DNA from: an uncultured Lachnospiraceae bacterium
Lineage (GTDB): Bacteria; Bacillota; Clostridia; Oscillospirales; CAG-272
DNA: 26,349 nt
Direction: 5' to 3'
Assembly (NCBI GenBank): GCA_964609165.1
Contig: CAZSSE010000001.1
Span: 1 to 26,349, forward strand
Below the pieces are notes generated by a model, which made no database searches, had not been told where the DNA came from, and saw only the letters and a list, made by a program, of their open reading frames with translations. Positions 12 to 19,147 of this stretch are shown here, piece by piece (within the stretch, counting starts at the first letter, position 1; every line of letters starts with the position of its first letter). Position numbers and translations under genes: made by a program.

Positions 12-695
12 CTAAGCGGATTGCCTTCTTTTCATTCGTTGCCAACTGATATATCCGTAAATATCATTAAACAGAAATGCAACGAAGCAGACGACCACCG
101 AGATATAGCGAATATCCGATATGGCTGCCAGCACCCATAAAACGATCAAAACAATATCGTTAGCCGCATAAGCCATGGCGAAGCCGGGACATCTGCGAAA
201 CGTCAGATATACCGCAAGAAAGCTCGTAGTTACAGATATGGTGCTTGGTATGATATTAGCGGTATTGAAATATTCAAGAATAAAATAGAAGACCGCCGTT
301 GCGATTAAAGAAAGCAGCCACATCAGAAGCTGTTCGAGCTTGCCTATGCTATTCACCTTGACCTCTGCCTTATTTCCCTTGTACGGATTTTTCAGCCACG
401 CAATGAGAGCGAAAATTGCCATCGGCATGGTCATTCCAAGGTATGTAATCATCTCGCCATAGTAGGAAAATGTATATGAAATAATGCCATAGAGCAGGCT
501 GAATACGATCATAAGAGCTTGACCTATCGGGTTGCCCTTTGCGTTGAATATAAGCGATGTTACGCCGATCAGTGAAGCAACCAACGTCAGATAGCTTTCA
601 CGGTCAAAAATGCAAAAGGACACAATAACAAAAATTACAGATACAGACCATAAAATGAGCTCCATATTGGAAAAATACGCAAATAGTTTTTTCAT
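12..695 (-). CDS. pnuC: PnuC-family (nicotinamide riboside/vitamin) transporter, 227 aa
   Basis: Polytopic membrane protein with the PnuC-like N-terminal pattern (SLIGVTSLIFNAKGNPIGQ...LYG...YYGEM) and C-terminal YGYISW. Start moved from the ORF-track 731 to ATG 695 because GGAGG (705-701) precedes it. The substrate cannot be determined from sequence. Confidence 0.75.
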   Translation of the reverse strand: MKKLFAYFSNMELILWSVSVIFVIVSFCIFDRESYLTLVASLIGVTSLIFNAKGNPIGQALMIVFSLLYGIISYTFSYYGEMITYLGMTMPMAIFALIAWLKNPYKGNKAEVKVNSIGKLEQLLMWLLSLIATAVFYFILEYFNTANIIPSTISVTTSFLAVYLTFRRCPGFAMAYAANDIVLIVLWVLAAISDIRYISVVVCFVAFLFNDIYGYISWQRMKRRQSA

Positions 696-705
696 ACAAA
701 CCTCC

Positions 706-790
706 AAAAAAATAAGCACCCGCATGCACATCTTCTAAGACCTAACGATGTGTAAACGAATGCAAACGCATTATACTACCCGGTGGCAGT
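706..790 (-). promoter_or_regulatory. Putative transcription attenuator in the pnuC 5' leader
   Basis: Terminator-like hairpin GCAUUCG(763-757)/CGGGUGC(722-716) with inner CACAUC/GAUGUG, followed by UUAUUUUUUU. A competing hairpin AAUGC(772-768)/GCAUU(763-759) and a 5' hairpin at 790-775 are also present. Confidence 0.5.
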
Positions 791-803: not shown

Positions 804-832
804 ATTATATCACAATTAGGGCAAAATGTCAA
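804..832 (-). promoter_or_regulatory. sigmaA promoter of pnuC
   Basis: On the minus strand: TTGACA (832-827), 17 bp, TATAAT (809-804), with a TGn extended -10. Confidence 0.85.
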
Positions 833-935: not shown

Positions 936-964
936 TTGACTGCGACACAAATATATGATAAAAT
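936..964 (+). promoter_or_regulatory. sigmaA promoter of the two-component operon
   Basis: TTGACT (936-941), 17 bp, TAAAAT (959-964), with TGn extension. Confidence 0.65.
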
Positions 965-980: not shown

Positions 981-1013
981 GTTTATTTTCAGTTTATAGA
1001 ACAGCAATAAAAT
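981..1013 (+). promoter_or_regulatory. Putative response-regulator box plus -10 (autoregulatory promoter)
   Basis: GTTTATTTTCAGTTTATA (981-998), 9 nt, TAAAAT (1008-1013). The box is 17/18 identical to the box at 2871 and has the same spacing. Confidence 0.65.
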
Positions 1014-1044
1014 AGGTGCAATCAATTAAGAGAGGTGAAAATAA

Positions 1045-1719
1045 GTGTTCCATATTCTTGTGGTAGATGATGATAAAAATACGAGGATGTACTTTGAAGC
1101 CGTGCTGAAGAACAACGGTTATACCGTAACCGTTGCAAATAACGGAGAGGATGCGCTTGAAGCTATGGACAAGGCGCATATAGATCTTGTTGTGCTTGAT
1201 ATTATGATGCCGAAAATGGACGGATATGAGCTCACCAAGACCTTGCGTGAGTGTGATAATAATCTGCCCATTCTGATGGTATCTGCCAAGCAGCTCCCCG
1301 TGGATAAGAACAGGGGATTTGCAGTTGGTACGGATGACTATATGACGAAGCCTGTTAATCAAGATGAGTTTTTATATCGCATAAAGGCACTTTTGCGTCG
1401 TGCCAAAATTGCAAACGAGCGTAAGATCGTGATCGGTGACGTGGTGATCGACTACGATTCTTTGACGGTTACGAGGGGCGGGGAGGTGCAGGAGCTTCCG
1501 CAGAAGGAATTTTTGCTGCTCTATAAATTACTGTCCTATCCCGAAAAGATTTTTACCCGTATTCAGTTGATGGACGAAATATTGGGCGCGGATAGCGAGA
1601 CGGGCTGGGAGACCGTTACCGTACACGTCGGCAGACTTCGTAAACGCTTTGAGGGTTGGGATGAATTTGAGATAGAGGCTGTTCGTGGGCTCGGATATAA
1701 GGCGGTAAAGAAGATATGA
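1045..1719 (+). CDS. OmpR/PhoB-family response regulator, HssR-like
   Basis: Receiver domain (ILVVDDD, LDIMMP, SAK, DDYMTKP) plus winged HTH (KIFTRIQLMDE...TVHVGRLR...VRGLGY). GTG start after GAGGTG. Confidence 0.95.
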   Translation: MFHILVVDDDKNTRMYFEAVLKNNGYTVTVANNGEDALEAMDKAHIDLVVLDIMMPKMDGYELTKTLRECDNNLPILMVSAKQLPVDKNRGFAVGTDDYMTKPVNQDEFLYRIKALLRRAKIANERKIVIGDVVIDYDSLTVTRGGEVQELPQKEFLLLYKLLSYPEKIFTRIQLMDEILGADSETGWETVTVHVGRLRKRFEGWDEFEIEAVRGLGYKAVKKI

Positions 1720-2804
1720 AGAAGGTTCCGGCATTGAGTATAGAAAAGCTCAAGGAAAGAACATCAAGAACCTCCTTGACCCTTGCGCTTTCTATCTTTG
1801 TTTTTGTAATTTTGCTTGCGGCAATCGGTCTTACGGCGCTTGGTCTTTGGCTGTTGACGAATGCCGGGGTGATCGTTGACGTGGACGGCGATCTTCAGCT
1901 CGGACAGGTCACTCTGTTTATGTCCTTGATCAGCCTGATTATTGGCGGCGTGGCAACTTTTTTCAGTAGCCGTATTCCTTTGAAGCCTGTCAATGAAATT
2001 ATCAATAAGATGAACCGTCTTGCCGCCGGAGATTTCAAAACAAGATTGAAGTTTGGCAATACCATGTCATCACATCCTGTCGTGAAGGAGCTTACAACAA
2101 GCTTCAACACAATGGCAAAGGAGCTTGAAAACACCGAGATGCTGCGTAATGACTTTATAAATTCATTTTCTCACGAGTTTAAAACGCCAATCGTTTCGAT
2201 CATGGGGCTTGCCAATCTTCTTGAAGCAGGTGATCTTACAGAAGAAGAGCGCGTACAGTATGCACATGCCATTCGTGAGGAATCAATGCGTCTCTCTTCT
2301 ATGGCAAGCAATATATTGAATTTGACCAAGGTGGAAAACCAAACTATCCTTACCGACGTCTCGCGGTTCAATCTTTCCGAGCAGGTGAGATCCGCCGTGC
2401 TTTTGCTCGAGGAAAAATGGACGTCAAAAAATATTGATCTACAGCTTGATTTTGACGAATTTATGATCGAAGCAAATGAAGGACTTCTCAAGCAGGTGTG
2501 GATCAATTTGATCGACAACGCTGTGAAATTTGTTCCTCGGTGCGGTACGGTTGCACTTGAGATCGGCGAGGTCGAAGAAAATCTTTGTGTAAGGATCAGA
2601 AATACCGGCAGTGAAATACCTTATGATAAACAGGATAAGATATTCAATAAATTTTATCAGGCGGACGAGTCACACGCAACGCAAGGCAACGGTATCGGTC
2701 TTGCCATCGTGAAACGAATTGTGGAGCTTCATAATGGTAGTGTCAGCGTAAGCAGCGGAAACGGAATCACCTCATTTACCGTTGTACTTCCGAAGAAGCA
2801 GTAG
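1716..2804 (+). CDS. Sensor histidine kinase (two TM helices, HAMP, HisKA, HATPase), HssS-like
   Basis: H-box SHEFKTP, N-box NLIDNAVKF, F-box IFNKFYQ, G2 GNGIGLAIV. ATGA overlap with the regulator. Confidence 0.95.
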   Translation: MKKVPALSIEKLKERTSRTSLTLALSIFVFVILLAAIGLTALGLWLLTNAGVIVDVDGDLQLGQVTLFMSLISLIIGGVATFFSSRIPLKPVNEIINKMNRLAAGDFKTRLKFGNTMSSHPVVKELTTSFNTMAKELENTEMLRNDFINSFSHEFKTPIVSIMGLANLLEAGDLTEEERVQYAHAIREESMRLSSMASNILNLTKVENQTILTDVSRFNLSEQVRSAVLLLEEKWTSKNIDLQLDFDEFMIEANEGLLKQVWINLIDNAVKFVPRCGTVALEIGEVEENLCVRIRNTGSEIPYDKQDKIFNKFYQADESHATQGNGIGLAIVKRIVELHNGSVSVSSGNGITSFTVVLPKKQ

Positions 2805-2840
2805 CTGCTTGTTCCCTTACTAAAAACAAATAAATATTTT

Positions 2841-2864
2841 GGGCAATCGATTTATCGGTTGCCC
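2841..2864 (+). terminator. Hairpin after the kinase gene, possible weak terminator
   Basis: GGGCAATCGA-TTTA-TCGGTTGCCC, a 10-bp stem with one GU pair. The U-tract is poor. Confidence 0.4.
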
Positions 2865-2870
2865 CATTCT

Positions 2871-2903
2871 GTTTAGTTTCAGTTTATATTTCGTGCGTAT
2901 AAT
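2871..2903 (+). promoter_or_regulatory. Putative response-regulator box plus -10 of the lipid operon
   Basis: GTTTAGTTTCAGTTTATA (2871-2888), 9 nt, TATAAT (2898-2903). No recognisable -35; GTTTA half-sites repeat with an 11-bp period. Confidence 0.7.
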
Positions 2904-2953: not shown

Positions 2954-3847
2954 ATGAAAAAAGTAAAAATCATCACCGATTCCTGCGCAGACATTGGCGC
3001 GGATATTCTGCAAAGGTATGATATTGATTACGTAAAAATGTCAACCATTGAAGATGGCAGGGAGGCTCCCGCACTTCTGACATGGAGTGCAGCAGATGCA
3101 CATAAACTTTATGATACCATTCGAGGCGGAAAGCGCATTATGACCGCACAGGTGTCGGTGGAAGAGTTTACTGCTGTTTTCACGAAGTATCTGGAGGAGG
3201 GCTACGATATTGTGTATATCGCCTGTTCCTCCAAGCAGTCAGGCTCTGTAAATACCGGTTACGTTACGGCTAAGGGCTTGCTGGAGAAATATCCGGACGG
3301 CAAGATCATCTGCATCGATTCTCTCAATGCAAGTATGGGCGAAGGTATGCTGGCTGTCGAGGCGGCAAAGCTTGCGGCAGAGGGTAAGAGCGCTGATGAG
3401 ATCCACAGCTATATTTTATCGATCCGAAAAAGGGTAAATCAATTTGTTACTGTACATACTCTCGATCACCTGAAAAAATCAGGTCGAGTTTCGGCGTCAT
3501 CCGCATTCTTTGGAAATTTAATGGGAGTAAAGCCGATTCTCATTTCAGATGTGGACGGTACACAAACGGCAGTCAAAAAGGTAAAAGGCAGACAGACCTC
3601 ATTTACCGAGATCGTAAAATGCCTGAAGGAAGCTATTGTTGAGCCGGAGAAGCAGATGGTATATATAGCTCATGCCGACTGTAGCAAGGAGGAGCTTGAA
3701 AGGCTTGTTACTCTTGTAAAGGACGAGATCCCTTGCAAGGATGTTTACATTGGACTGATCGGTCCTATCATCGGTGCCTCTATCGGTCCTGACGCAGTTG
3801 CAATTTGGGGATTTGGACAAGAGGTAACGTATAAAGCGGGAGAGTGA
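2954..3847 (+). CDS. degV: DegV-family fatty-acid-binding protein (FakB-like)
   Basis: IITDS, SSKQSGS, IDSLNASMGEG and TLDHLKKSGR motifs typical of DegV. Confidence 0.93.
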   Translation: MKKVKIITDSCADIGADILQRYDIDYVKMSTIEDGREAPALLTWSAADAHKLYDTIRGGKRIMTAQVSVEEFTAVFTKYLEEGYDIVYIACSSKQSGSVNTGYVTAKGLLEKYPDGKIICIDSLNASMGEGMLAVEAAKLAAEGKSADEIHSYILSIRKRVNQFVTVHTLDHLKKSGRVSASSAFFGNLMGVKPILISDVDGTQTAVKKVKGRQTSFTEIVKCLKEAIVEPEKQMVYIAHADCSKEELERLVTLVKDEIPCKDVYIGLIGPIIGASIGPDAVAIWGFGQEVTYKAGE

Positions 3848-3849
3848 GA

Positions 3850-5481
3850 ATGAGAACTTTAGACGGCATACTTTTCGCCAGAATGATCAATTCCGGAGCG
3901 GCAAGCCTAAAGGCGCACGCAAAGGAGGTAAACGATTTAAACGTATTTCCCATTCCCGACGGTGACACGGGCGACAATATGCTTATGACGATGATGGGTG
4001 GTGTCCATAAGGATTTCGATTGTGAGTCACTGTGCGAGGTAGCAGAGCGCGTGTCGAGCGGAATGTTGATGTCGGCACGCGGTAATTCGGGTGTAATTTT
4101 GTCGCAGTTCTTTGAGGGAATAAAAAACGGTTTTTCCGGACTTCATTCGGCAGATACTGACGCAATCGGCAGGGCCTTTCGCAATGGGGTAACGCAGGCG
4201 TATCAATCGGTTATGACACCGACCGAGGGAACCATCCTGACGGTCGTGCGCGAGGCAACCGAGTACGCTTGCAAGCAAAACACAGAAACGCCCGAGACAT
4301 TTCTGAACGCCTTTATAGAAGAAGCAAAGTTGTCTCTCGCAAGAACGCCCGAGCTTTTGCCCGTGCTGAAAAAAGCAGGTGTGGTCGATTCGGGTGCGGC
4401 AGGTCTCATTTATATCGTGGACGGAATGATGAGAGCCGTGATCGGCGAGGATGTGTCGGATATTACCGAATTTTCCGAGCACGCGCAGGAGCTTGATCTT
4501 GATGCATTCAATGAAGATAGTGTGTTGGAGTACGGATATTGTACCGAGCTTCTCGTTCGCTTACAGAATGTCAAGACCGATATATCGGCTTTCGACGTAA
4601 ATGTAATTACCGATTATTTGCAAACGATAGGCGATTCCATTGTTACCGTTCGCAACGGTAGTATAGTCAAGCTCCACGTACATACGATGACACCGCAAAG
4701 GGTGCTTGATTTCTGTCAACAATACGGCGAATTTCTCAAGGTCAAGATAGAAAATATGTCCTTGCAGCACAATAATACCGTTATCGAGGAAAAGAAATCT
4801 GCCCCTATGAAGGAGCGTAAAAGGTATGGTGTTGTTGCCGTTGCCTGCGGTGAAGGACTGAAAGAGACCTTCCGCGACAGAGGCGCGGACGTGATCGTAG
4901 ACGGCGGGCAGAGCATGAATCCATCCGCTGAGGATTTTATCGAAGCGTTTGATGAGGTTAATGCGGATGTGATCTTCGTATTTCCAAACAATAGCAATAT
5001 CATGCTGGCAGCACAGCAAGCGGCGCACTTATATGACAGCTCAGATGTGCGTGTGATCGAAAGCACCACAATCGGCGCGGGTTATGCGTCCCTTGCCATG
5101 CTGGATACGACCTCGGGGGATACCGATACGATCGTCGAGGAGCTCCAAATGGCAATGGAGGGCGTTGTGACTGCCGAGATCTCTCACTGTGTCCGAGATG
5201 CCGTAATTGATGGAAACGAAATGCACACCGGTGATTATATTGGCTTTGTCGGTAAAAGGCTTCTTTCTGTAAACCTAGAAAGACTTAATACAGTGTGTGA
5301 AGCCATAGAAAGGATCGGTTTTGAAGCCTACGACGTTTGTATTCTTTTTTGCGGTAAGGATGCGACCGAGGAGGAAGCTGAAAAAATCGAGGCTTACTTA
5401 CATTCTCACTACAAGGGAAAAGAGATATATATTATAAACGGTGGTCAGGACGTATACGATTATATTATGGTCATAGAATAA
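3850..5481 (+). CDS. fakA: DAK2-domain fatty acid kinase catalytic subunit (FakA-like)
   Basis: LNVFPIPDGDTGDNM, ARGNSGVILSQ, EGTILTV, GVVDSGA, YGYCTE, HVHT and KIENM motifs. ATG 3850 is 7 nt after GGAG; the alternative start is GTG 3844. Confidence 0.92.
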   Translation: MRTLDGILFARMINSGAASLKAHAKEVNDLNVFPIPDGDTGDNMLMTMMGGVHKDFDCESLCEVAERVSSGMLMSARGNSGVILSQFFEGIKNGFSGLHSADTDAIGRAFRNGVTQAYQSVMTPTEGTILTVVREATEYACKQNTETPETFLNAFIEEAKLSLARTPELLPVLKKAGVVDSGAAGLIYIVDGMMRAVIGEDVSDITEFSEHAQELDLDAFNEDSVLEYGYCTELLVRLQNVKTDISAFDVNVITDYLQTIGDSIVTVRNGSIVKLHVHTMTPQRVLDFCQQYGEFLKVKIENMSLQHNNTVIEEKKSAPMKERKRYGVVAVACGEGLKETFRDRGADVIVDGGQSMNPSAEDFIEAFDEVNADVIFVFPNNSNIMLAAQQAAHLYDSSDVRVIESTTIGAGYASLAMLDTTSGDTDTIVEELQMAMEGVVTAEISHCVRDAVIDGNEMHTGDYIGFVGKRLLSVNLERLNTVCEAIERIGFEAYDVCILFCGKDATEEEAEKIEAYLHSHYKGKEIYIINGGQDVYDYIMVIE

Positions 5482-5494: not shown

Positions 5495-6124
5495 ATGAAG
5501 GTATTTCTTTACATAGCGGCGGCGATATGCGGATATGTTGTAGCAGGAATGAATCCCGCCATTACCCTCTCAAGGGCAATATACAAAAAAGATATACGAG
5601 AATGTGGGAGCGGCAATCCCGGCTTTACCAATTTTAAAAGAACCTTTGGCAACAAATGGGCATGGTGGGTGCTCGTGCTTGATCTATCCAAAGCCGCAGT
5701 CGTCGTAGGAATTTTTGCTTGGCTTTTGTCCCGTCATGGCGTGGATTTTCAGCTTGGAGCGTCATACACGGGAATGTTTTGTATGCTCGGTCACGCTTTT
5801 CCGCTTGAATATCAATTCAAGGGCGGTAAGGGATTTCTTGTCTGCTTGTCTACTATGTATATAATCGATTGGCGCGTGGGATTGATCGCAACGGGAATTA
5901 TGGTCGCGCTGCTGTTGATTACCAAATATATGTCGCTTTCTACCACAATTGCAATGCTTCTGTGCCCGATTTTGCTTATCCCGTTCGGTGCATCGCTCCC
6001 GGTTATCCTAATGGCGTCATTTTGCTCGATATTTATGACGGTCAGACACAAGGAAAACTTCAAACGACTTTTCAAGGGAACTGAATCCAAATTTTCTATC
6101 AAAGGCAAGAAGGATAAAAAGTAA
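5495..6124 (+). CDS. plsY: Acyl-phosphate:glycerol-3-phosphate acyltransferase
   Basis: DIRECGSGNPGFTN, DLSK, GHAFP...FKGGKG and RHKENFKRL motifs. Confidence 0.93.
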   Translation: MKVFLYIAAAICGYVVAGMNPAITLSRAIYKKDIRECGSGNPGFTNFKRTFGNKWAWWVLVLDLSKAAVVVGIFAWLLSRHGVDFQLGASYTGMFCMLGHAFPLEYQFKGGKGFLVCLSTMYIIDWRVGLIATGIMVALLLITKYMSLSTTIAMLLCPILLIPFGASLPVILMASFCSIFMTVRHKENFKRLFKGTESKFSIKGKKDKK

Positions 6125-6134
6125 AAATTGAAAT

Positions 6135-6848
6135 ATGATAGATAATGAGAAACGTACACAACACAAAGCGCTGAAAACATTCAGACGGATCTTTATGATC
6201 CTGTTTTGGGGCGTATTGCTTCTGCTTTGCTTTCTGAACAGAGAGAAAATATCGGTTGAAGGAATTGTCGATCTCGTTCCCAAGGACGCGGTTTTGTCCA
6301 TTGTCGTGATGCTGCTTCTTTTTGCCGTTAAAGGTGTTGCGGTCTTTATTTACGGTAGTATTCTTTATGCGGCAAGCGGTATTCTGTTTTCGCTTCCCGT
6401 GGCAATTATTGTGAATACTGTCGGGACAGTCATAATGACGACTATTCCGTTTTACATAGGGAAGAAGGCGGGAAGGCGAATGATCGGCGAGCTTGTCAAG
6501 AAAAACTCTAAGTTGGAAATTCTGCAAGACACTCAAAACAAAAATGAATTTCTCGTCAGCTTCTTTCTTCGCATGGTCGGGCTTTTGCCTTCAGATCTTG
6601 TGGCAATGTATCTTGGTTCAAGCGGAATGTGCTACAAGCCATACCTCTTCGGAACCGTCATTGGACTTATGCCTTCTATCGTGTGCTTTTCCGTTATGGG
6701 AATGAGCATTGATGACGTTGGTTCACCGCAATTTATAATATCTTTGATCGTAGAAGCGGGACTTATGCTTCTCGCACTTGTCATTTATTTTATTTGGAAA
6801 TGTAAGAACAAAAAGAAACGTGAGATGATGAACAATGATGAAGCATAG
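6135..6848 (+). CDS. TVP38/TMEM64 (VTT domain, DedA superfamily) membrane protein
   Basis: Multi-TM protein with SGILFS...G...NTVG...FYIGK and FFLRMVGLLPSDLV...G motifs. Confidence 0.85.
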   Translation: MIDNEKRTQHKALKTFRRIFMILFWGVLLLLCFLNREKISVEGIVDLVPKDAVLSIVVMLLLFAVKGVAVFIYGSILYAASGILFSLPVAIIVNTVGTVIMTTIPFYIGKKAGRRMIGELVKKNSKLEILQDTQNKNEFLVSFFLRMVGLLPSDLVAMYLGSSGMCYKPYLFGTVIGLMPSIVCFSVMGMSIDDVGSPQFIISLIVEAGLMLLALVIYFIWKCKNKKKREMMNNDEA

Positions 6849-7683
6849 CATGAATCTTTTGGTAACGTTGAATGAAGCCTATTTGCCGTACCTGAATACG
6901 CTTCTTTCTTCTGTTATTTATCATAATCCGGATACTTATTTCACCGTGTACCTGCTGCACACGTCAATTCGCAGGGAAGCGACCGAAAAAACAAATGCCA
7001 TTTTGGGGAAGAGCGGTAAGCTTGTTATGATCGAAGCCGAAGGTCACGGGCTTGACAATGCGCCTACTACCGACCGCTTTCCCAAGGAAATGTATTACCG
7101 TATTTTTGCGGCAAAATATTTGCCGGAGAATGTTAGTAGAGTTTTATATCTTGATCCTGACATCATTGTTAACGGATCGCTTGCAGAGCTTTATGATACA
7201 CCGCTTGACGGATATTATTTTGCGGCGGCTTCTCACAATGGGAGGGTGACGCGATTTATTAACGGAAAGCGTCTTCGCTTACAAAAGGGAGCTCCTTATA
7301 TCAATTCGGGCGTTCTTCTGATGAATCTTGATCTCTTGCGTAAGGAGCAGAAATATGAGAATGTATTTACCTATATCGAAAAGAAGGGAACCAAGCTGCT
7401 TTTGCCGGATCAGGATGTGATCAGTGGGTTGTACGGAGAACGAATTTTTAAGCTGAGTGCCTATATCTACAATATGACAGATCGCTTGTATCGTTATGAC
7501 CGAATATTCGGTAAGAGACATAAATTTGAATGGTATAAGGAAAACTCGGTTATTTTCCATTATTGTGGAAAAAACAAGCCGTGGAAAAAGAATTATTCCG
7601 GTGCTTTCGGGATTTTCTATAAAGAGACTCTTGCGCGAATGGGAAGCGCGTGTGAGGCAGAAGGGGGAGCTACATATGCATAG
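6835..7683 (+). CDS. Glycosyltransferase family 8 (GspA/RfaJ-like)
   Basis: MYYRIFA, RVLYLDPDIIV (DxD), YINSGVLLMNL, DQDVI and HYCGKNKPW motifs. Start uncertain (6835, 6838 or 6850). Confidence 0.9.
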   Translation: MMKHSMNLLVTLNEAYLPYLNTLLSSVIYHNPDTYFTVYLLHTSIRREATEKTNAILGKSGKLVMIEAEGHGLDNAPTTDRFPKEMYYRIFAAKYLPENVSRVLYLDPDIIVNGSLAELYDTPLDGYYFAAASHNGRVTRFINGKRLRLQKGAPYINSGVLLMNLDLLRKEQKYENVFTYIEKKGTKLLLPDQDVISGLYGERIFKLSAYIYNMTDRLYRYDRIFGKRHKFEWYKENSVIFHYCGKNKPWKKNYSGAFGIFYKETLARMGSACEAEGGATYA

Positions 7684-8242
7684 AATATTTAAGAAAAAAC
7701 AAATACTTACCATACCGAACCTGCTTAGCTTGGTTCGCCTTGCGCTCATTCCTGTAATCGTTTGGTTGTACAGCTATGAGCAGAAATATTACGCCGCGAT
7801 AGGTGTGATCATTCTGTCCGGCGCGACAGATATTATCGACGGTTGGATCGCGCGGCATTTTCATATGATATCAGACTTTGGAAAGATCCTTGACCCCGTA
7901 GCGGACAAGCTGACGCAGGCAGCAATGCTTTTATGCTTGCTGTCAAAATATAAATTGATGTGGGGACTTGTAATATTGTTTGCGCTTTGTGAGATAACCA
8001 AGCTGATACTCGGTGCTGTTGTTATGAAAAAGCACGACGAGGTTAACAGTGCAAAATGGTATGGAAAGATGAACACTGTGGTTATTTACGTAACAATGAT
8101 GCTTTTGATTTTGTTCCCTCAAATGCATAGTGTTCTGGCAAACGCGCTGATGCTGCTTTGCGGTACCGGTATGATAATCGCTCACGTGCTGTATTTTGTA
8201 TTCCTTGGCAATATTCTGCTTGATAGGAGTCACCGCGGATGA
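7676..8242 (+). CDS. CDP-alcohol phosphatidyltransferase (PgsA-like)
   Basis: IPNLLSLVR and the signature DIIDGWIARHFHMISDFGKILDPVAD. Start at ATG 7676 after GGGGGAG, not the ORF-track 7496. The acceptor alcohol is not certain. Confidence 0.9.
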   Translation: MHRIFKKKQILTIPNLLSLVRLALIPVIVWLYSYEQKYYAAIGVIILSGATDIIDGWIARHFHMISDFGKILDPVADKLTQAAMLLCLLSKYKLMWGLVILFALCEITKLILGAVVMKKHDEVNSAKWYGKMNTVVIYVTMMLLILFPQMHSVLANALMLLCGTGMIIAHVLYFVFLGNILLDRSHRG

Positions 8243-9048
8243 TTAAACGAACACTTACGGGAGCTGTGATATTGGTGTTCGTGTATGCGTGGCTTTTATT
8301 TTCACATATCCCGATCGTTTTATACATAGGAACACTGATATTGAGTGCTTTAGCTGTTCTTGAAATTATGAGAATTTGCAGGACCGACAATCATAAAGTG
8401 CTTTACGGTACAATAGTAATATATGCTTTGCTGTTGCTATTGCCCATACCGAGGTACGAATACCCGATGATGTTGATATTTCCCGCTGCCTTGATCATGT
8501 TCGGATTTATGATGGCGGATAAGGAGAAATTTCGGATATTCAATCCTGCTTTTGCAATCGTAGTCAGCATTACGGTTATATTGCTTTTCAAGGCTATTCC
8601 GACGCTGAGATCGATGGATAACGGATTTTATTATTTGACATTTGCAGTAACGTCTTGTTTTGTAACCGACATTGCTGCATTTTTGTTTGGCAGGGCTTTT
8701 GGCTCGCATAAGCTGTGTCCAAAAATAAGTCCCAAGAAAACGGTTGAGGGAGCGATAGGTGGTGCGGCGTGTGCCGTTATCATCTCCATGCTTGCCGCGG
8801 TTATTTTGCACAGGCTTGCAAAATTACACTTTAGCGTCATTGTGCTCGTAATATGGGCTGTGCTTGTATCTGTTATAGGTCAGCTTGGCGATCTTTGTAT
8901 GTCGGTCGTCAAGCGTATTGCGGGAGTAAAGGATTTTGGCGCGCTATTGCCCGGACACGGCGGTATTCTTGACCGATTTGACAGTCACGTTTTAGCCATA
9001 CCGTTTACGCTTGTCTTCTGTGTGTTGACGGGTGGATTTATTCGGTAA
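8239..9048 (+). CDS. cdsA: Phosphatidate cytidylyltransferase
   Basis: ISPKKTVEG and KDFGALLPGHGGILDRFDS signatures. ATGA overlap with the upstream gene. Confidence 0.93.
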   Translation: MIKRTLTGAVILVFVYAWLLFSHIPIVLYIGTLILSALAVLEIMRICRTDNHKVLYGTIVIYALLLLLPIPRYEYPMMLIFPAALIMFGFMMADKEKFRIFNPAFAIVVSITVILLFKAIPTLRSMDNGFYYLTFAVTSCFVTDIAAFLFGRAFGSHKLCPKISPKKTVEGAIGGAACAVIISMLAAVILHRLAKLHFSVIVLVIWAVLVSVIGQLGDLCMSVVKRIAGVKDFGALLPGHGGILDRFDSHVLAIPFTLVFCVLTGGFIR

Positions 9049-9144
9049 AAAAAGCAAAACAAAGGTCAGAGCCATTTTGTATAAGATTTTTGGAATGAGC
9101 ACTGAATTTTCCAAAATGACGATCAAGGTCGGACAAATAATAAT

Positions 9145-9184
9145 GCAATATCCCCCGCTTCATGTCAAAAGCGGGGGATATTGC
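9145..9184 (-). terminator. Intrinsic terminator between convergent cdsA and lysR
   Basis: Perfect 16-bp stem GCAATATCCCCCGCTT/AAGCGGGGGATATTGC with an 8-nt loop. The U-rich tail is on the minus strand (ATTATTATTTG). Confidence 0.8.
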
Positions 9185-9198
9185 GGGGATTATATAAA

Positions 9199-10095
9199 TT
9201 ATCCTTTATGAACATTACTTTGATACAATTCAACAATTCCTTTCAATACGTCCAAATGGGCAAAGTCCTTGTTGTAGGCAATATTCATTTCACGCATCAT
9301 ACTCAGATTTTCAATAGGAAGAATAGTCAGCTTTCCTTTCTTTGCCTCGCTGATGCAAGCGCTTCGGGGAAGAATAGATACGCCGAGCCCCTTTTTTACA
9401 AGCTCATTTATCGTAGAAACATTATCCACCTCCAAAGACACGTTAAAATTATCTATAGACTCGTTCATACTGATAAGTGTCGCTTCAAACAACTGTCTTG
9501 TTGCGGATGTGGGTAAACGCAGGATCATGTTTTGCTTTTTCAGATCATTTATCGTAACCAAAGAATGCTTTGCAATCGGATTATCGTTGCTCATTACGCA
9601 AACCAGATAGTCTGTATCCACCATAAAGTAATTCAGCTTGGCGGAGTGACGTTTTCCCTCCACGATGGCAATATCAAGCTCGTAATTCTCAAGCATATCA
9701 TAAAGATTATTTATGGTATCAGTAATTATCGTTATACTTACGTGCGAGTATTGGTTCACGTATTTTGCCAATATTTCCGAGATCATATTGTTCTCGGAGG
9801 TATGGGTAATACCGATACGAAATCTTGAAACGTGCTTTTGCTCATCAGCAATTTCGAATAGCATTTTTTCGTGCAGTGCTTTCAATCTTCTTGCGTATGT
9901 AACGGCAATTTCTCCTTCCGGCGTAAGTCTGAAATCCCCCTTGCCGCGCACAAAAATCTTTGCATTGCACTCTTTTTCAAGCTGACAGATATGGTTACTT
10001 ACGGCGGGCTGTGTCAGCGACAGGATCTTAGCTGCTTTCGTGAAATTCTTACAATCGGAGACCACAAGCAGTGTTTCAAGCTTTACATCTAACAT
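9199..10095 (-). CDS. LysR-family transcriptional regulator
   Basis: N-terminal HTH NFTKAAKILSLTQPAVSNHICQLE plus a PBP2 effector domain. RBS GAGGT; divergent from the antiporter/ATP synthase cluster. Confidence 0.95.
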   Translation of the reverse strand: MLDVKLETLLVVSDCKNFTKAAKILSLTQPAVSNHICQLEKECNAKIFVRGKGDFRLTPEGEIAVTYARRLKALHEKMLFEIADEQKHVSRFRIGITHTSENNMISEILAKYVNQYSHVSITIITDTINNLYDMLENYELDIAIVEGKRHSAKLNYFMVDTDYLVCVMSNDNPIAKHSLVTINDLKKQNMILRLPTSATRQLFEATLISMNESIDNFNVSLEVDNVSTINELVKKGLGVSILPRSACISEAKKGKLTILPIENLSMMREMNIAYNKDFAHLDVLKGIVELYQSNVHKG

Positions 10096-10147
10096 AGCAT
10101 ATACCTCTACTATAAAATAAATTTATCAATACCTAAAAAAATATAAG

Positions 10148-10176
10148 TTGACATTATAATATTTTTAGTATATCAT
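10148..10176 (+). promoter_or_regulatory. Putative sigmaA promoter of the antiporter-mgtC-atp cluster
   Basis: TTGACA (10148-10153), 17 bp, TATCAT (10171-10176). Confidence 0.55.
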
Positions 10177-10613
10177 ATAATAGATCAATTTGCAAGCGGA
10201 GAAGTGCATTTTGTGAAAAATATTTTGATGATATTTAAGCGATTTTTCATTAAGCCTTCTGACGGCAGGTTGCTTTTGAAAGAACGATAGCAGGACGACT
10301 TGTTTTGCACGGCTGTGATCGACGGCACCGTAAAGGGGCGCGGAAGAAAATGGTTGATTTTTTTGGATCTTGCTTTGTTTTTATCAGTACTGTTTTTACT
10401 CGTCAGGGATGATTATATAGAAGCGCACACGCTATCGTTTGGTACATATGCTTGCTGTTACGGTGGTCTGCGCTTTTTTATTTTGAAATTTGAAATCCGA
10501 CGATCTGAGTATCGGGACAGATGTGTATTATCGTAGGTTATGCGTCCTTATGCGTCTGCCCATTATTATTTACGAAAATACCGTAGCACTTGGCTACTAT
10601 GGAGGTATATGAA

Positions 10614-12071
10614 ATGTTGAATGGTCTTTACGAGCGCTTGGGGACACAATCGAATGTTGCTGTTATTATTATCTCTGTCGCCATTATGCTGATATGCGGA
10701 TTTTTAATGACTCGTGTTACGAAAAAACTACGTCTGCCAAACGTGACTGCGTACATAATAGTCGGTATTCTGATCGGACCGTATTGCTTGGATCTTATTC
10801 CGAAATCTATCATAGAAGGTACGGAATTTCTCGCCGACATCGCACTCGCGTTCATTGCATTCAGTACGGGAGAGTTTTTCAAATTTTCAAAGCTGAAAAA
10901 CAGCGTAGGCAAGGTCGTGGTCATAACGCTTGCCGAGGCGCTTTTAGCGTCTGTGCTTGTATTCGTTCTTTCCTTCTGGATATTGCATCTGAGCCTTGCC
11001 TTTTCTATCGTTCTGGCTGCACTTGCATCGGCAACTGCCCCCGCCTCTACGATGATGACGATCAGGCAGACGGGCGCGAAGGGCGACTTTGTAGATACGC
11101 TTTTACAAGTAGTTGCCTATGACGACATCGTGGCTCTTCTGGCTTACAGCATTGCCATCTCAGTTGCCGTCACCTACACAACAGGCGAAGCCTTCAGCTT
11201 TTTGAACATTGTTGTCCCCATTTTGAAAAATTTCGGAGCCCTGGCGCTTGGCGGCGTATTCGGATTACTTATGAAGCTTCTGATACATAGAAAACGGTCT
11301 ACCGACAATCGCCTGATTATCTCTATTGCGCTTTTGTTCGCATTTTGCGGTATATGCGCGGCGATGGATGTTTCTCCGCTTCTCGGATGTATGTCTATGG
11401 GAACGGTGTACGTCAATCTTGCAGATGATGATAAGCTATTTAAACAGCTAAACTATTTCAGCCCTCCTATTCTGCTTCTTTTCTTCGTTCGCTCGGGTCT
11501 TTCCTTTGATTTAAATGCTTTGGTAAATCCCTCCGGCGCGATTGGCGGTGTTTCACTCTTGCTGATCGGCGTGTTGTATTTCTTTGTACGTATTATCGGA
11601 AAATACGTGGGCGCATTTCTTGGCTGTCTTTGTGTTAAAAAGCCCGTCAGAACCCGTAATTATTTGGGGCTCGCTCTTATTCCGCAGGCGGGAGTTGCAA
11701 TTGGTCTTGCGGCACTTGGTGCAAGAACGCTCGGCGGCGATGTCGGAAATGCCTTGCAGACCATTATACTTGCTTCAAGCGTGCTTTACGAGTTGGTCGG
11801 TCCCGCTTGCGCAAAGCTCTCGCTTTATTTGTCAAAATCGTATTCAACTAAGCTTGAAGACATAGTTCCTCTTAATAAAGAGCCGAGCACCGAGGAAAAA
11901 CCTAAAAACACCGTCGAGGAATTGATCGAGAGAATACAGATCATCCAAGGCGAGCTTGCAAAAGAGAAAATTAACGAAGAGGAGCACGCATTTACAGAGG
12001 CGGCTGAGGAACATTTTGAGGCTTTGTCGGTTCGCCATGCCTATCTTGCCTCGGGAGGAAAGAGAAAATGA
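10614..12071 (+). CDS. CPA2-family cation:proton antiporter with a charged helical C-terminal tail
   Basis: About 12-13 TM helices; LPNVTAYIIVGILIGP, ATAPAST, VAYDDI and RIIGKY motifs. ATG 10614 lies 7 nt after GGAGGT. Confidence 0.88.
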   Translation: MLNGLYERLGTQSNVAVIIISVAIMLICGFLMTRVTKKLRLPNVTAYIIVGILIGPYCLDLIPKSIIEGTEFLADIALAFIAFSTGEFFKFSKLKNSVGKVVVITLAEALLASVLVFVLSFWILHLSLAFSIVLAALASATAPASTMMTIRQTGAKGDFVDTLLQVVAYDDIVALLAYSIAISVAVTYTTGEAFSFLNIVVPILKNFGALALGGVFGLLMKLLIHRKRSTDNRLIISIALLFAFCGICAAMDVSPLLGCMSMGTVYVNLADDDKLFKQLNYFSPPILLLFFVRSGLSFDLNALVNPSGAIGGVSLLLIGVLYFFVRIIGKYVGAFLGCLCVKKPVRTRNYLGLALIPQAGVAIGLAALGARTLGGDVGNALQTIILASSVLYELVGPACAKLSLYLSKSYSTKLEDIVPLNKEPSTEEKPKNTVEELIERIQIIQGELAKEKINEEEHAFTEAAEEHFEALSVRHAYLASGGKRK

Positions 12072-12778
12072 TAGATCCTATTGCAAAAATACTTGGTGAA
12101 TGGTCTCAGGAGCTGAACGGATACAGTATTTTATTCAGAATTGTTTTATCGGTGACGCTTGCCGCCGTGATCGGCTGTGAGCGTTCAAGCAAACGTCACT
12201 CGGCAGGACTTCGCACCTTTATATTGGTGTCCTTGGCTATGACGGTGACTATGCTCCTTGACGGATATTTAATGGGAACGGGCACATACGTTCTCTCGGG
12301 CGCAGGCATTATAGGTGTGGCAATTATCAGCGTAAATTCCTTGCTTGTAAGCTCACGAAGTCAAATTAAGGGCTTGACCACTGCCGCAGGGCTTTGGACC
12401 TGCGCGATCATCGGTCTTGCGGTGGGAGCGGGTTACTACACGGTTACGTTTATTGCGTTTGGCGTACTGCTGTGCTGCCTTTCGATCTTCCCGTCGTTGG
12501 AGCGTTATTTGAAAAACAGATCTAACCATTTTGAAATACATCTTGAATTAAAAGATAACAGCTATCTCGAAAACTTTGTTACGACGATACGCAGGCTTGG
12601 CTTGCGCATTGATGATATTGAGGCAAATCCAGCTTACGCAGGCTCGGGGCTGAGCGTATATTCTATCGCAATTTCGATCAGCAGCCAGGAGCTGAAAAAG
12701 TATAAAACACACACAGAGATCATCGAGGCACTTCGCAGCTTGGATTACATTTGCCACATAGAAGAAATGTTACTTTGA
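12068..12778 (+). CDS. mgtC: MgtC/SapB-family membrane protein with an ACT-like C-terminal domain
   Basis: IGCERSSKRHSAGLRT and KGLTTAAGLW signatures. ATGA overlap with the antiporter. Confidence 0.9.
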   Translation: MIDPIAKILGEWSQELNGYSILFRIVLSVTLAAVIGCERSSKRHSAGLRTFILVSLAMTVTMLLDGYLMGTGTYVLSGAGIIGVAIISVNSLLVSSRSQIKGLTTAAGLWTCAIIGLAVGAGYYTVTFIAFGVLLCCLSIFPSLERYLKNRSNHFEIHLELKDNSYLENFVTTIRRLGLRIDDIEANPAYAGSGLSVYSIAISISSQELKKYKTHTEIIEALRSLDYICHIEEMLL

Positions 12779-12833
12779 TTTGGCACTTGATCTTTCCATA
12801 CCAAATGGTAAAAAATAAATGGAGAAAAATAAG

Positions 12834-13673
12834 ATGAAAACGAAAAAAAGGAACAAGAAACTGATTTTCCTTGCGTTTTGGCTTGCAACTATTGTATTGA
12901 TAGTTGTTGGAATAATATTGCTGTGGCCACCCGGAGCTAAGCATCAAACGATCAAAGAGGTCATGAAGGACGGAGTTTTGCATGAAGACAACAAGATGTC
13001 TTTATTTGGGCTTGAGGTAAATCCTGCGCTGATTTCCGCTTATACGGTTACGGCAATATTATTGCTTATAGCTGCACTTATAAGAATATTTGCAATACCA
13101 AAATTCAAGACCGTACCCGGTAAGCTTCAATGTGTTATCGAAAAGCTGGTGGAGTTCTTCTCGGATATGGCACACGCCAACAGTCATCACAGGCCACGTT
13201 TCGTGGGAGCGTATATATTCAGCGCGGGTATTTACATATTTTTCGGAACGCTGTTCGAGCTGTTCGGAGTACAATGGCTTACAACAGACGGGGTATCAGT
13301 GTCTCTCCCCGCGCCGTTATCGGATATCAATGCCGCAATAGCAATGGGAGTCATGTCATATATAATAATTCTCGGCGCAGGCATTATCTGCGGAGGCTTC
13401 CGCGGGGCACTCGGTGTCCTGAAGGACTTTTCGTTACCTATATCGATGAGCTTCCGCTTGTTCGGCGCACTGATCAGTGGATTGCTTGTTACCGAGCTTG
13501 TCTATTATTATGTAAGCCTCAGCTTTGTATTACCTGTAATCGTGGGAGTTCTGTTTACACTTTTACACGCTATCGTACAGACCTATGTGCTTGCAACGCT
13601 GGTATCGATATTCTACGGCGAAGCCGTTGAACCAAAGCCAAAGAAAGTTAAAATTAAGAAAGCTAAGAGGTAA
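12834..13673 (+). CDS. atpB: F1Fo ATP synthase subunit a, with an extra N-terminal hydrophobic helix
   Basis: VPGKLQCVIE, APLSDIN, PISMSFRLFG (essential Arg) and VQTYV...L motifs. ATG 12834 follows GGAG; the alternative start is 12819. Confidence 0.9.
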   Translation: MKTKKRNKKLIFLAFWLATIVLIVVGIILLWPPGAKHQTIKEVMKDGVLHEDNKMSLFGLEVNPALISAYTVTAILLLIAALIRIFAIPKFKTVPGKLQCVIEKLVEFFSDMAHANSHHRPRFVGAYIFSAGIYIFFGTLFELFGVQWLTTDGVSVSLPAPLSDINAAIAMGVMSYIIILGAGIICGGFRGALGVLKDFSLPISMSFRLFGALISGLLVTELVYYYVSLSFVLPVIVGVLFTLLHAIVQTYVLATLVSIFYGEAVEPKPKKVKIKKAKR

Positions 13674-13679
13674 ACTAAA

Positions 13680-14057
13680 ATGAAAAAAATTATATCTGTC
13701 ATTATATCATTGATTTTGATGCTTACACTTGTTGCGATGACGTCCGTCAGCGTTTCTGCCGCTGAGTCAGATTCTGCTCAAAGCGATGAAGCTGCTGCGG
13801 CTGTTGAAGAGACCGAGGCAAATAACAGCAGTGTTCTTTCTACTAAAGCTATCGCTGCCGCAATTGTTGTGGCGGTTGTTGGAGCGACGGGTGCCATCGG
13901 TATGGCGATCGCAATTTCCAAGAGTACCGACAGTATGGCTCGTCAGCCGGAAATAGCGGGAAAAATCAACTCGACAATGATGCTCGGCATCGTATTTATT
14001 GAAACTGCGATCATTTATGCCTTGATTGTCGCAATTCTTATTATATTTGTTTTGTAA
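13680..14057 (+). CDS. atpE: F1Fo ATP synthase subunit c with a ~51-aa N-terminal extension
   Basis: ARQPE loop and FIETAIIY ion-binding helix. RBS GAGGT before Met1. Confidence 0.93.
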   Translation: MKKIISVIISLILMLTLVAMTSVSVSAAESDSAQSDEAAAAVEETEANNSSVLSTKAIAAAIVVAVVGATGAIGMAIAISKSTDSMARQPEIAGKINSTMMLGIVFIETAIIYALIVAILIIFVL

Positions 14058-14069
14058 GAGGGAACGAAT

Positions 14070-16403: not shown

Positions 16404-19147
<2,744 letters not shown>

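What the first reader, a model, noticed from the sequence alone, without database searches (positions are those of the whole stretch)
981..2903. Twin 18-bp boxes define a small regulon: the two-component system and the lipid operon
Seen: GTTTA[T/G]TTTCAGTTTATA occurs at 981 and 2871 (17/18 identical). Each is exactly 9 nt upstream of a -10 hexamer (TAAAAT, TATAAT) with no -35. Established: OmpR/PhoB regulators bind 11-bp-period direct repeats that replace the -35. As I recall, S. aureus HssR binds GTTCATATT-N2-GTTCATATT, which these half-sites resemble. Inference: this HssRS-like pair autoactivates and switches on a phospholipid-building operon rather than heme efflux (hrtAB), which would be a new output for the family.
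Basis: partly seen in the sequence, partly recalled or inferred. Interest (0 to 1): 0.8.

Follow-up and report, generated by a model that had tools for sequence, protein, structure and literature searches.

The report
Operator boxes of a membrane-lipid two-component regulon
Two identical-looking 18-base boxes are very probably the landing sites of the neighbouring two-component regulator; they tie a membrane-embedded sensor to its own genes and to a fatty-acid-salvage and phospholipid operon, a circuit conserved in many uncultured gut Clostridia, found in no paper I searched, and conventional in mechanism.

Summary
GTTTATTTTCAGTTTATA (981-998) and GTTTAGTTTCAGTTTATA (2871-2888) each lie 9 nt before a -10 hexamer. 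They are the only such sites in the 1.68-Mb, 80%-complete genome.

The box (GTTT-M-K-TTTCAGTTTA-K-A, 9 nt, TAnnnT) recurs next to orthologues of this OmpR-type regulator and short-loop kinase in 69 of 80 related loci: 119 sites against 1 in a reversed-sequence control. There it precedes the regulator gene and DegV, FakA, PlsX/Y/C and lipid-kinase genes, also where these are unlinked. It also precedes FtsH, other membrane proteases and transporters.

Best reading (0.75): a pho-box-like activator site replaces the -35 element. The phosphorylated regulator switches on its own operon and the degV-to-cdsA operon. This is a local part of a wider membrane-homeostasis regulon.

The "HssRS-like" label is not supported. 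The kinase has only a ~15-residue loop between its two membrane helices, and no named family model fits.

Binding, start sites and signal are untested; no RNA data exist. This scan already reported the same regulon on other DNA. I found no paper on it. It is a new member of a known kind.

The parts
936..964 (+). P1: canonical sigma-70-type promoter (TTGACT-17-TAAAAT, TG extension) upstream of box 1. Likely gives basal expression of the two-component genes.
   Evidence: A similar promoter lies within 70 nt upstream of the box (most often with its -35 some 38-49 nt upstream) at 23 of 45 regulator-gene boxes in relatives, against 5 of 74 other boxes.
981..998 (+). Box 1: direct-repeat operator GTTTATTTTCAGTTTATA (half-sites GTTTAT and GTTTAT, 11-bp period).
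   Evidence: Conserved upstream of orthologous regulator genes.
1008..1013 (+). -10 hexamer TAAAAT of the box-dependent promoter P2. Predicted start near A1020.
   Evidence: 9-nt spacing. TAnnnT lies at exactly +9 in 102 of 106 near-consensus boxes. A purine lies 7 nt after the -10 in 98 of 113 sites.
1045..1719 (+). OmpR/PhoB-type response regulator (224 aa, GTG start) with receiver and winged-helix domains.
   Evidence: Acceptor Asp52, Lys102 and the recognition-helix region are invariant in 11 orthologues.
1716..2804 (+). Histidine kinase (362 aa): 2 membrane helices, a loop of about 15 residues, HAMP, HisKA and ATPase domains. Its start overlaps the regulator's stop by 4 nt.
2841..2864 (+). 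Terminator-like hairpin (10 pairs) after the kinase gene. It separates the two transcription units.
2871..2888 (+). Box 2: operator GTTTAGTTTCAGTTTATA.
   Evidence: Conserved in front of degV in relatives, linked and unlinked.
2898..2903 (+). -10 hexamer TATAAT of the lipid-operon promoter. Predicted start near G2910.
2954..3847 (+). degV (FakB-type fatty-acid-binding protein).
3844..5481 (+). fakA-type fatty acid kinase (Dak2, FakA-like_M and FakA-like_C domains).
5495..6124 (+). plsY (acyl-phosphate:glycerol-3-phosphate acyltransferase).
6135..6848 (+). VTT/DedA-family membrane protein.
6835..7683 (+). Family 8 glycosyltransferase.
7496..8242 (+). CDP-alcohol phosphatidyltransferase (PgsA/Cls-like). 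The true start is probably downstream of 7496, because the Pfam match begins at residue 71.
8239..9048 (+). cdsA (CDP-diacylglycerol synthase), last gene of the operon.
9145..9184 (.). Hairpin of 17 pairs between the convergent cdsA and a minus-strand gene. Likely the end of the operon.

Best explanation
The two boxes are operators for the response regulator encoded at 1045-1719.

Anatomy. Each box is a tandem direct repeat (GTTT-M-K then GTTTA-K, 11 bp apart). It occupies the place of the -35 element and lies at a fixed 9 nt from a sigma-A-type -10.

Proposed mechanism. The membrane-embedded kinase has two helices, a tiny loop and no outside domain. When it phosphorylates the regulator, a regulator dimer binds head-to-tail and recruits RNA polymerase, as PhoB does at pho boxes. 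Two units are switched on:
- its own operon, from P2, on top of basal expression from the canonical promoter P1;
- the seven-gene operon degV-fakA-plsY-dedA-GT8-CDP-alcohol transferase-cdsA, which turns scavenged fatty acids into phospholipid.

In this genome these are the only two targets found. In relatives the same box also drives plsX, plsC, lipid-kinase, FtsH, other protease and transporter genes. The system therefore reads as a membrane-homeostasis or stress regulon whose largest output class is lipid synthesis.

Shown: sequence, spacing, conservation, co-occurrence with the regulator, kinase topology.
Inferred: binding, activation rather than repression, start sites, and the signal (membrane or lipid state).
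For: - The boxes are real and unique in the genome.
- In 1.22 Mb around 80 orthologous regulators (75-91% identity), the consensus occurs 60 times exactly and 46 times with 1 mismatch, against 0 and 0 in reversed sequence. The weight matrix gives 119 sites against 1.
- 102 of 106 near-consensus boxes have TAnnnT exactly 9 nt downstream. Positions that were not used to select the sites are also constrained, and 98 of 113 sites have a purine at the predicted +1.
- 69 of 80 loci have at least one box. 47 have one co-directional upstream of the regulator gene, and 31 of 71 have one directly after the kinase gene.
- First genes after the non-regulator boxes (69 genes): lipid kinase 10, DegV 7, FakA-like 6, PlsC-type 4, PlsX 2, PlsY 1, CmpB 7, FtsH 5-6, ABC/FtsX 3-4, Zn-peptidase 3.
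- The box sits in front of degV even where degV is unlinked to the two-component genes (G005 and G103).
- In promoter alignments the only invariant columns are the box and the -10.
- Across 60 family genomes, 6 of 7 with the regulator have the box-plus-10 pattern, against 9 of 53 without it. Fisher p = 0.0006, and kin are not independent.
- The regulator has canonical receiver residues and an invariant recognition-helix region. Among solved structures, PhoB DNA-binding-domain chains are among the closest matches to its DNA-binding domain (E about 5e-11; three unnamed OmpR-family regulator chains score better, E about 1e-13).
Against: - There is no experimental evidence: no RNA runs hold this DNA, so start sites and induction are unverified, and binding cannot be tested here.
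- The weight matrix was trained on the same 80 loci that it was then used to count. The mismatch counts and the seed sites are independent of it.
- 11 of 80 orthologous loci show no box within the DNA held. Only 47 of 80 have one ahead of the regulator gene.
- The conserved centre TTTCA could act as a weak -35 element, so part of the conservation may be promoter sequence rather than operator.
- The signal is unknown.
- The own genome carries second copies of degV-fakA, plsY, cdsA and a CDP-alcohol transferase. The controlled set is therefore not the only lipid pathway, and its exact product is unclear.
Confidence: 0.75

Rival explanations
1. Same regulator and same site, but negative control. 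The regulator sits on the -35/spacer region and represses an otherwise weak sigma-A promoter. At its own gene it blocks transcripts from P1, whose predicted start is about 10 nt before box 1.
For: The box centre gives a 3-4 of 6 match to a -35 hexamer at 16-nt spacing. Box 1 lies just downstream of the canonical promoter P1, and this tandem layout is conserved (23 of 45 against 5 of 74). Bound regulator could therefore act as a roadblock for P1.
Against: The -35-like element is poor and at a suboptimal spacing, while the -10 is good. That is the usual signature of activator-dependent promoters. Head-to-tail repeats placed next to the -10 at a fixed distance are the layout of PhoB-type activation (established knowledge). 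Target promoters other than the regulator's own rarely have a second promoter, so repression would leave these genes with almost no expression.
Confidence: 0.1
2. The box is read by another protein, for example the paralogous OmpR-type regulator on contig C6 (47% identical), an unrelated transcription factor or an alternative sigma factor. Its position next to this two-component system would then be coincidental co-location.
For: Binding is not shown. The genome has five further OmpR-type paralogues. Nine family genomes without a close orthologue (E > 1e-90) still have a box-plus-10 match.
Against: - The box tracks this orthologue group across 69 of 80 loci and sits on the same contig as the regulator in the family genomes that have both.
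- More distant relatives of the regulator (57-65% identity, in other families) carry drifted versions of the same box beside them. This explains the nine cases.
- The -10 consensus TAtAAT is sigma-A-like. No ECF-type AAC / CGT motifs are present.
Confidence: 0.08
3. The pair is a true HssRS orthologue (heme sensing) that has been rewired to a lipid operon.
For: The boxes match the recalled HssR repeat at 13-14 of 18 specified positions (my comparison; the HssR sequence is from memory). In some relatives the box drives FtsX-type ABC transporters, the class to which HrtAB belongs.
Against: - The kinase lacks any extracytoplasmic domain: the loop is about 15 residues and is not conserved.
- Neither protein reaches any named equivalog model.
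- No hrtAB-like genes flank the pair in this window.
- The family consensus box matches the HssR repeat less well (11 of 18).
Confidence: 0.03

Closest known systems
PhoB and the pho box (E. coli), a class II activator of the OmpR/PhoB family
   Same: An 18-bp site made of two direct repeats with an 11-bp period. It replaces the -35 element and lies at a fixed short distance from the -10 (9 nt here; about 10 in pho promoters, from established knowledge). The regulator controls its own operon. Among solved structures, PhoB DNA-binding-domain chains are among the closest matches to this regulator's DNA-binding domain (E about 5e-11, behind three unnamed OmpR-family chains).
   Different: The half-site sequence differs (GTTTA-type, not TGTCA). 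The kinase has no PAS or phosphate-transporter coupling. The regulon is membrane lipid and proteostasis, not phosphate. It is not an equivalog: 169 bits against a cut-off of 296.
SaeRS of Staphylococcus aureus
   Same: An intramembrane-sensing kinase with a very short loop (9 residues in SaeS). An OmpR-type regulator with a tandem repeat of GTTAA-type half-sites (from memory). Autoregulation from an inducible promoter plus a constitutive one. A functional tie to fatty acid kinase: free fatty acids act on the SaeS membrane anchor (PMC5539427, PMC8774646).
   Different: In S. aureus fatty acids and FakA act upstream of the kinase, and the output is virulence factors. Here fakA and degV are the output. 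The SaeR DNA-binding domain is only a distant match (E 7e-8, behind PhoB, ArlR and WalR).
HssRS-HrtAB (S. aureus, B. anthracis)
   Same: An OmpR-type regulator acting through a direct repeat in the target promoter (PMC3968170). The half-sites look similar. FtsX-type ABC transporters are targets in some relatives.
   Different: The kinase here has no extracytoplasmic domain. The target in this window is a lipid operon. There is no evidence of heme involvement.
HexRK and YrkPQ (C. difficile, B. subtilis)
   Same: Two-component systems whose small regulons consist mostly of membrane-lipid or envelope-biogenesis genes (PMC10128005).
   Different: HexK has an extracytoplasmic domain of about 120 residues. 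Its targets are glycolipid genes (hexSDF), not the core acyl-phosphate / CDP-diacylglycerol pathway (PMC10128005).
CiaRH of Streptococcus
   Same: A very similar half-site and the same promoter geometry. Its regulon includes envelope quality-control genes such as htrA.
   Different: A different lineage and kinase type. No lipid-synthesis operon is known as a target. Not tested here.

Membership tests
OmpR/PhoB-family response regulator with a pho-box-like activated promoter | Receiver domain plus C-terminal winged-helix (Trans_reg_C) domain | tested here: met
   Pfam PF00072 (E 2.6e-30) and PF00486 (E 1.4e-15).
OmpR/PhoB-family response regulator with a pho-box-like activated promoter | Phospho-acceptor Asp and the conserved receiver residues | tested here: met
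   D8-D10, D52 and K102-P103 are invariant in 11 orthologues, and S80 is conserved in at least 90%.
OmpR/PhoB-family response regulator with a pho-box-like activated promoter | Tandem direct-repeat half-sites about one helical turn (11 bp) apart | tested here: met
   GTTT at positions 1-4 and 12-15 is nearly invariant in 113 sites.
OmpR/PhoB-family response regulator with a pho-box-like activated promoter | Site overlaps or replaces the -35 element at a fixed distance from a sigma-70-type -10 | tested here: met
   TAnnnT lies exactly 9 nt after the box in 102 of 106 near-consensus sites. The -35-like match is only 3-4 of 6.
OmpR/PhoB-family response regulator with a pho-box-like activated promoter | Phosphorylated regulator binds the site and activates transcription | not testable with these tools
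HssRS heme-sensing system | Kinase with an extracytoplasmic sensor domain between its two membrane helices (feature of HssS, from my own knowledge) | tested here: not met
   The loop is about 15 residues. The 79 orthologues are 344-398 aa long and the loop is not conserved.
HssRS heme-sensing system | Adjacent hrtAB target (ABC ATPase plus FtsX permease) | tested here: not met
   The window has degV-fakA-plsY...cdsA after the kinase gene. FtsX-type ABC genes are targets only in some relatives.
HssRS heme-sensing system | HssR box GTTCATATT-N2-GTTCATATT | tested here: inconclusive
   13-14 of 18 positions match in the window boxes and 11 of 18 in the family consensus. The HssR sequence is from memory and was not found in the paper text I searched.
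HssRS heme-sensing system | Orthology of the regulator and kinase to HssR and HssS | not tested
   No HssR or HssS sequence was available to me. Among the 25 best of 92 (regulator) and of 75 (kinase) NCBIfam families shown, none reaches its cut-off.
Intramembrane-sensing histidine kinases (SaeS, BceS, LiaS type) | Two membrane helices joined by a loop too short for a folded sensor domain | tested here: met
Intramembrane-sensing histidine kinases (SaeS, BceS, LiaS type) | Dedicated accessory partner encoded alongside (BceAB-type transporter, LiaF, SaePQ) | tested here: not met
   No conserved extra gene flanks the pair in the window. Neighbours vary between relatives.
DesKR-type membrane-fluidity system | HisKA_3 kinase with a NarL-type regulator | tested here: not met
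   The kinase is HisKA (PF00512) and the regulator is OmpR-type.

The most novel reading that the evidence does not exclude
The short-loop kinase senses lipid supply or free fatty acids within the bilayer. It feeds back on fatty-acid salvage (FakAB), acyl transfer and CDP-diacylglycerol synthesis. In gut Oscillospiraceae that mostly lack a ketoacyl-ACP synthase, and so probably depend on scavenged fatty acids, this would be a dedicated homeostat for membrane biogenesis. It would be the reverse wiring of S. aureus, where fatty acid kinase acts upstream of SaeS.
Probability: 0.3. Interest if true: 0.7.

Novelty: new member of a known kind. Interest (0 to 1): 0.5.

Why it matters
In the Firmicutes I know of, core phospholipid-synthesis genes (plsX, plsY, plsC, cdsA, fakAB) are controlled by cytoplasmic repressors such as FapR or FabT. 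That is established knowledge and was not tested here. In this lineage a membrane-embedded two-component sensor appears to drive them, together with membrane proteases and transporters.

The result gives a defined operator, a promoter geometry and a target list. Together these make the question "what tells these anaerobes to build or repair membrane?" directly testable. Bile acids, dietary fatty acids and membrane-active antimicrobials are obvious candidate signals.

The mechanism itself is conventional, and the scan had already met this regulon on other DNA. The interest is therefore moderate.

Tried and rejected
- RNA evidence for the start sites: 16 runs hold the DNA and none is RNA. I therefore did not lay reads.
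- Synteny with same-genus genomes, to see whether the whole module is an indel: the DNA is too diverged and only short 71-79% matches came back.
- Link between having the system and lacking fatty-acid synthesis: 6 of 7 against 34 of 52, p = 0.41, so no support.
- Idea that the window-type fakA travels only with the two-component system: rejected. Genomes without the close regulator orthologue still have 45-54% identical FakA.
- Known RNA element at the boxes: nothing credible in Rfam.
- Weaker extra boxes in the own genome, for example before the lipid-kinase gene on C20: none above control level.
- Named family for the regulator or kinase: none reaches its cut-off.
- HexRK and DraRS of C. difficile as orthologues: rejected on kinase topology, since both have extracellular domains.
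- Literature searches for a described regulator of degV, fakA or plsY of this kind found none. The library is not complete.
- ECF-sigma promoter: rejected, because the -10 is TAtAAT-like.
Full report
**1. The observation**

The window reads GTTTATTTTCAGTTTATA at 981-998 and GTTTAGTTTCAGTTTATA at 2871-2888. Each box is followed by nine unrelated bases and then a -10-like hexamer: TAAAAT at 1008-1013 and TATAAT at 2898-2903.

- The repeat is 19 nt if the preceding T is counted, and the flanks are unrelated. It is therefore not a remnant of a duplicated segment.
- With up to 3 mismatches the window holds only these two matches. The expectation is 0.11, and none of 100 shuffles reached two.
- The whole assembly is an 80%-complete, 318-contig, 1.68-Mb metagenome-assembled genome. 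It holds no further copy at up to 2 mismatches.
- A weight matrix that includes the -10 scores the two sites 44.1 and 35.3. The next best hit scores 14.6 and the best hit on reversed sequence scores 15.7.

**2. Genes around the boxes**

- Box 1 precedes an OmpR-type response regulator (1045-1719) and a histidine kinase (1716-2804). The two genes overlap by 4 nt.
- A hairpin of 10 pairs (2841-2864) follows the kinase gene.
- Box 2 precedes seven tightly packed genes: degV (FakB-type), fakA, plsY, a VTT/DedA membrane protein, a family 8 glycosyltransferase, a CDP-alcohol phosphatidyltransferase and cdsA. The run ends before a 17-pair hairpin at 9145-9184.
- The kinase has two hydrophobic helices (about residues 20-47 and 64-84) joined by about 15 residues, then HAMP, HisKA and ATPase domains.
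- In 79 orthologues (344-398 aa) the same topology holds and the loop is not conserved. This is an intramembrane-sensing kinase.

**3. Comparative evidence**

A first scan of 150 genomes of the same family turned up a recurrent variant, GTTTCGTTTCAGTTTAGA.

Fetching 20 such places showed the box beside orthologues of this regulator (69-79% identity) and kinase (47-61%). It also sat in front of degV-fakA-plsY, a plsY paralogue, lipid kinases of the DAGK/YegS type and a PlsC-type acyltransferase. In two genomes degV is unlinked to the two-component genes and still carries the box (G005: L035 and L037; G103: L040 and L041).

The best 80 are 75-91% identical. All are gut or rumen metagenome-assembled genomes labelled Oscillospiraceae, Eubacteriales, Faecousia and the like. 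In the 1.22 Mb around those 80:

- The consensus GTTTNNTTTCAGTTTANN occurs 60 times exactly, 46 times with one mismatch and 38 times with two. In reversed sequence the counts are 0, 0 and 11.
- Of the 106 hits with at most one mismatch, 102 have TAnnnT exactly 9 nt downstream.
- Positions that were not used for selection are also constrained: W before the box, A/C at position 5, G/T at 6 and 17, W at 19-20, and TAtAAT in the -10. A purine stands 7 nt after the -10 in 98 of 113 sites. This places the predicted starts at A1020 and G2910 in the window.
- With the weight matrix there are 119 sites against 1 control. 69 of 80 loci have at least one site. 47 have one co-directional ahead of the regulator gene, 12 have a divergent one, and 31 of 71 have one directly after the kinase gene. 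The matrix was trained on these loci. The mismatch counts are independent of it.
- In alignments of ten degV promoters and twelve regulator promoters, the only invariant columns are box positions and the T, A and T of the -10.

Among 60 family genomes, 6 of the 7 that have a close orthologue of the regulator have the box-plus-10 pattern. Of the 53 others, 9 have it, and the backward-read control pattern gives 2 hits in all. Fisher p = 0.0006, with the caveat that kin are not independent.

The nine cases are explained by more distant relatives of the regulator. Regulators 57-65% identical, in other Clostridia families, carry drifted boxes such as GTTTAAATTCAGTTTATA beside them.

**4. What the box controls**

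The first genes after the 69 non-regulator boxes are, by Pfam:

| Class | Gene family | Count |
|---|---|---|
| Lipid synthesis (30 of 69) | DAGK/YegS lipid kinase | 10 |
| | DegV | 7 |
| | FakA-like | 6 |
| | PlsC-type acyltransferase | 4 |
| | PlsX | 2 |
| | PlsY | 1 |
| Transport | CmpB-type membrane protein | 7 |
| | ABC/FtsX transporter | 3-4 |
| | AI-2E transporter | 2 |
| Membrane proteostasis | FtsH | 5-6 |
| | Zn_peptidase_2 | 3 |
| | ClpP, PrsW, PDZ protein | 1 each |

In other families, small RelA/SpoT-type alarmone synthetases, PlsX, FtsH and fused ABC-FtsX transporters follow the box.

The regulon therefore reads as membrane homeostasis or stress, with lipid synthesis as its largest class. 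In the present genome only the two-component operon and the degV-to-cdsA operon carry the box.

**5. Mechanism**

The geometry is that of PhoB-type class II activation: a head-to-tail repeat with an 11-bp period, in place of the -35, at a fixed distance from a sigma-A-type -10.

- The regulator has the acceptor Asp52 and the other receiver residues, and an invariant recognition-helix region.
- Among solved structures, PhoB DNA-binding-domain chains are among the closest matches to its DNA-binding domain, behind three unnamed OmpR-family regulator chains.

I therefore read both promoters as activator-dependent. Binding, the direction of control and the start sites are inferences.

One nuance is that the conserved centre, TTTCA, gives a 3-4 of 6 match to a -35 hexamer at 16-nt spacing. 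Part of its conservation may serve polymerase contact.

One addition is a canonical promoter, TTGACT-17-TAAAAT with a TG extension, at 936-964. Its predicted start is about 10 nt before box 1. Such a promoter lies within 70 nt upstream of the box at 23 of 45 regulator-gene boxes in relatives, against 5 of 74 other boxes (p = 5e-8). The system thus has a basal promoter plus an inducible one, as sae and other autoregulated systems do. Bound regulator might also hinder transcripts from the basal promoter.

**6. The signal**

The kinase has no outside domain and no conserved accessory gene beside it. It probably reads the state of the bilayer itself.

SaeS of S. aureus is a precedent. It has a 9-residue loop, and free fatty acids that accumulate without fatty acid kinase act on its membrane anchor (PMC5539427, PMC8774646).

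No ketoacyl-ACP synthase was found in this genome or in 40 of 59 high-quality family genomes. Many of these bacteria may therefore depend on scavenged fatty acids. Presence of the system does not correlate significantly with that trait (p = 0.41).

The genome also has second, 32-38% identical copies of degV-fakA, plsY, cdsA and a CDP-alcohol transferase, and single plsX and plsC genes without a box. The controlled operon is thus one of two sets, and its end product is not settled. Note e1-5331976 suggests a glycosylated phospholipid.

**7. Comparison with what is known**

The system works like PhoB at pho boxes. It resembles SaeRS in kinase type and in its dual promoters. It resembles HexRK and YrkPQ in having a small membrane-lipid regulon (PMC10128005).

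It is not shown to be a member of any named system. No NCBIfam equivalog reaches its cut-off. HssS (from my knowledge), HexK (about 120 residues, PMC10128005) and DraS (PMC10601699) all have outside domains, and this kinase has none.

The boxes do match the HssR repeat as I also recall it (GTTCATATT-N2-GTTCATATT) at 13-14 of 18 positions. I could not confirm that sequence in the texts I searched. The likeness is of the general GTTnA half-site kind.

Literature searches found no description of a two-component regulator of degV, fakA or plsY of this kind. They did find related ideas, such as LiaFSR/SapRS control of lipid remodelling in enterococci (PMC13123819).

**8. Earlier notes of this scan**

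After forming my reading I found that follow-up agents had reported the same operator and regulon on other DNA: e1-747223, e1-1898914 and e1-2830922, with e1-3185254 related. My analysis was made independently on this window and agrees with them.

**9. Verdict**

- The HssRS label is not supported.
- The finding is a new, apparently undescribed member of a well-known kind of circuit. It is widespread in gut Clostridia and has a plausible, untested role as a membrane-lipid homeostat.

Noticed in passing
window 936-964 (+), and relatives L071, L074, L081, L091, L094, L111, L128, L130: A canonical sigma-70-type promoter sits just upstream of the regulator-gene box. This holds at 23 of 45 such boxes against 5 of 74 other boxes. 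It is a conserved tandem of a basal and an inducible promoter; the basal start would lie about 10 nt before the box.
   Followed up: yes
own genome G000 and 59 high-quality genomes of the family: No ketoacyl-ACP synthase (PF00109) was found in the own genome (80% complete) or in 40 of 59 high-quality family genomes, including a 97%-complete genome of the same genus. Much of this family may be unable to make fatty acids.
   Followed up: partly
G000 contigs C106 (2516-5070), C130, C127, C31, C20, C212, C62: The genome has a second set of lipid genes: degV-fakA, plsY, cdsA and a CDP-alcohol transferase at 32-38% identity to the window copies. It also has a lipid-kinase gene (47-53% identical to the box-controlled lipid kinases of relatives), plsX and plsC. 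None has a box. The box-controlled operon is thus one of two pathways.
   Followed up: partly
L104 (Candidatus Ornithomonoglobus sp.), 6100-20150: Nine boxes lie within 20 kb, in front of an AI-2E transporter, a CmpB-type protein, ClpP, a PDZ protein, a small unknown protein, the regulator and others. This is a much larger local regulon than in the window.
   Followed up: partly
L162 (G407), L163 (G275), L165 (G325), L168 (G339): Relatives of the regulator (57-78% identical) in other Clostridia families carry drifted boxes. These precede a small zinc-ribbon protein plus plsX, RelA/SpoT-type alarmone synthetases, FtsH and fused ABC-FtsX transporters. Two of these genomes (G407, G275) are complete single-contig genomes.
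   Followed up: partly
family scan: The system is patchy. Only 7 of 59 high-quality family genomes hold a close orthologue (E <= 1e-90), and a 97%-complete genome of the same genus does not.
   Followed up: partly
window 7496-7683: The longest frame of the CDP-alcohol transferase overlaps the glycosyltransferase gene by 188 nt, and the Pfam match starts only at residue 71. The real start is probably near 7680-7700.
   Followed up: no
window 804-832 (-): A perfect TTGACA-17-TATAAT promoter with a TG extension faces the PnuC-type nicotinamide mononucleotide transporter gene (12-731, minus strand). It is divergent from the two-component genes, and a long leader follows (see note e1-5331974).
   Followed up: no
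G000 contig C6, 10574-12315 (-): A paralogous regulator/kinase pair (47% and 36% identical) exists in the same genome. Its operator and targets were not examined.
   Followed up: no
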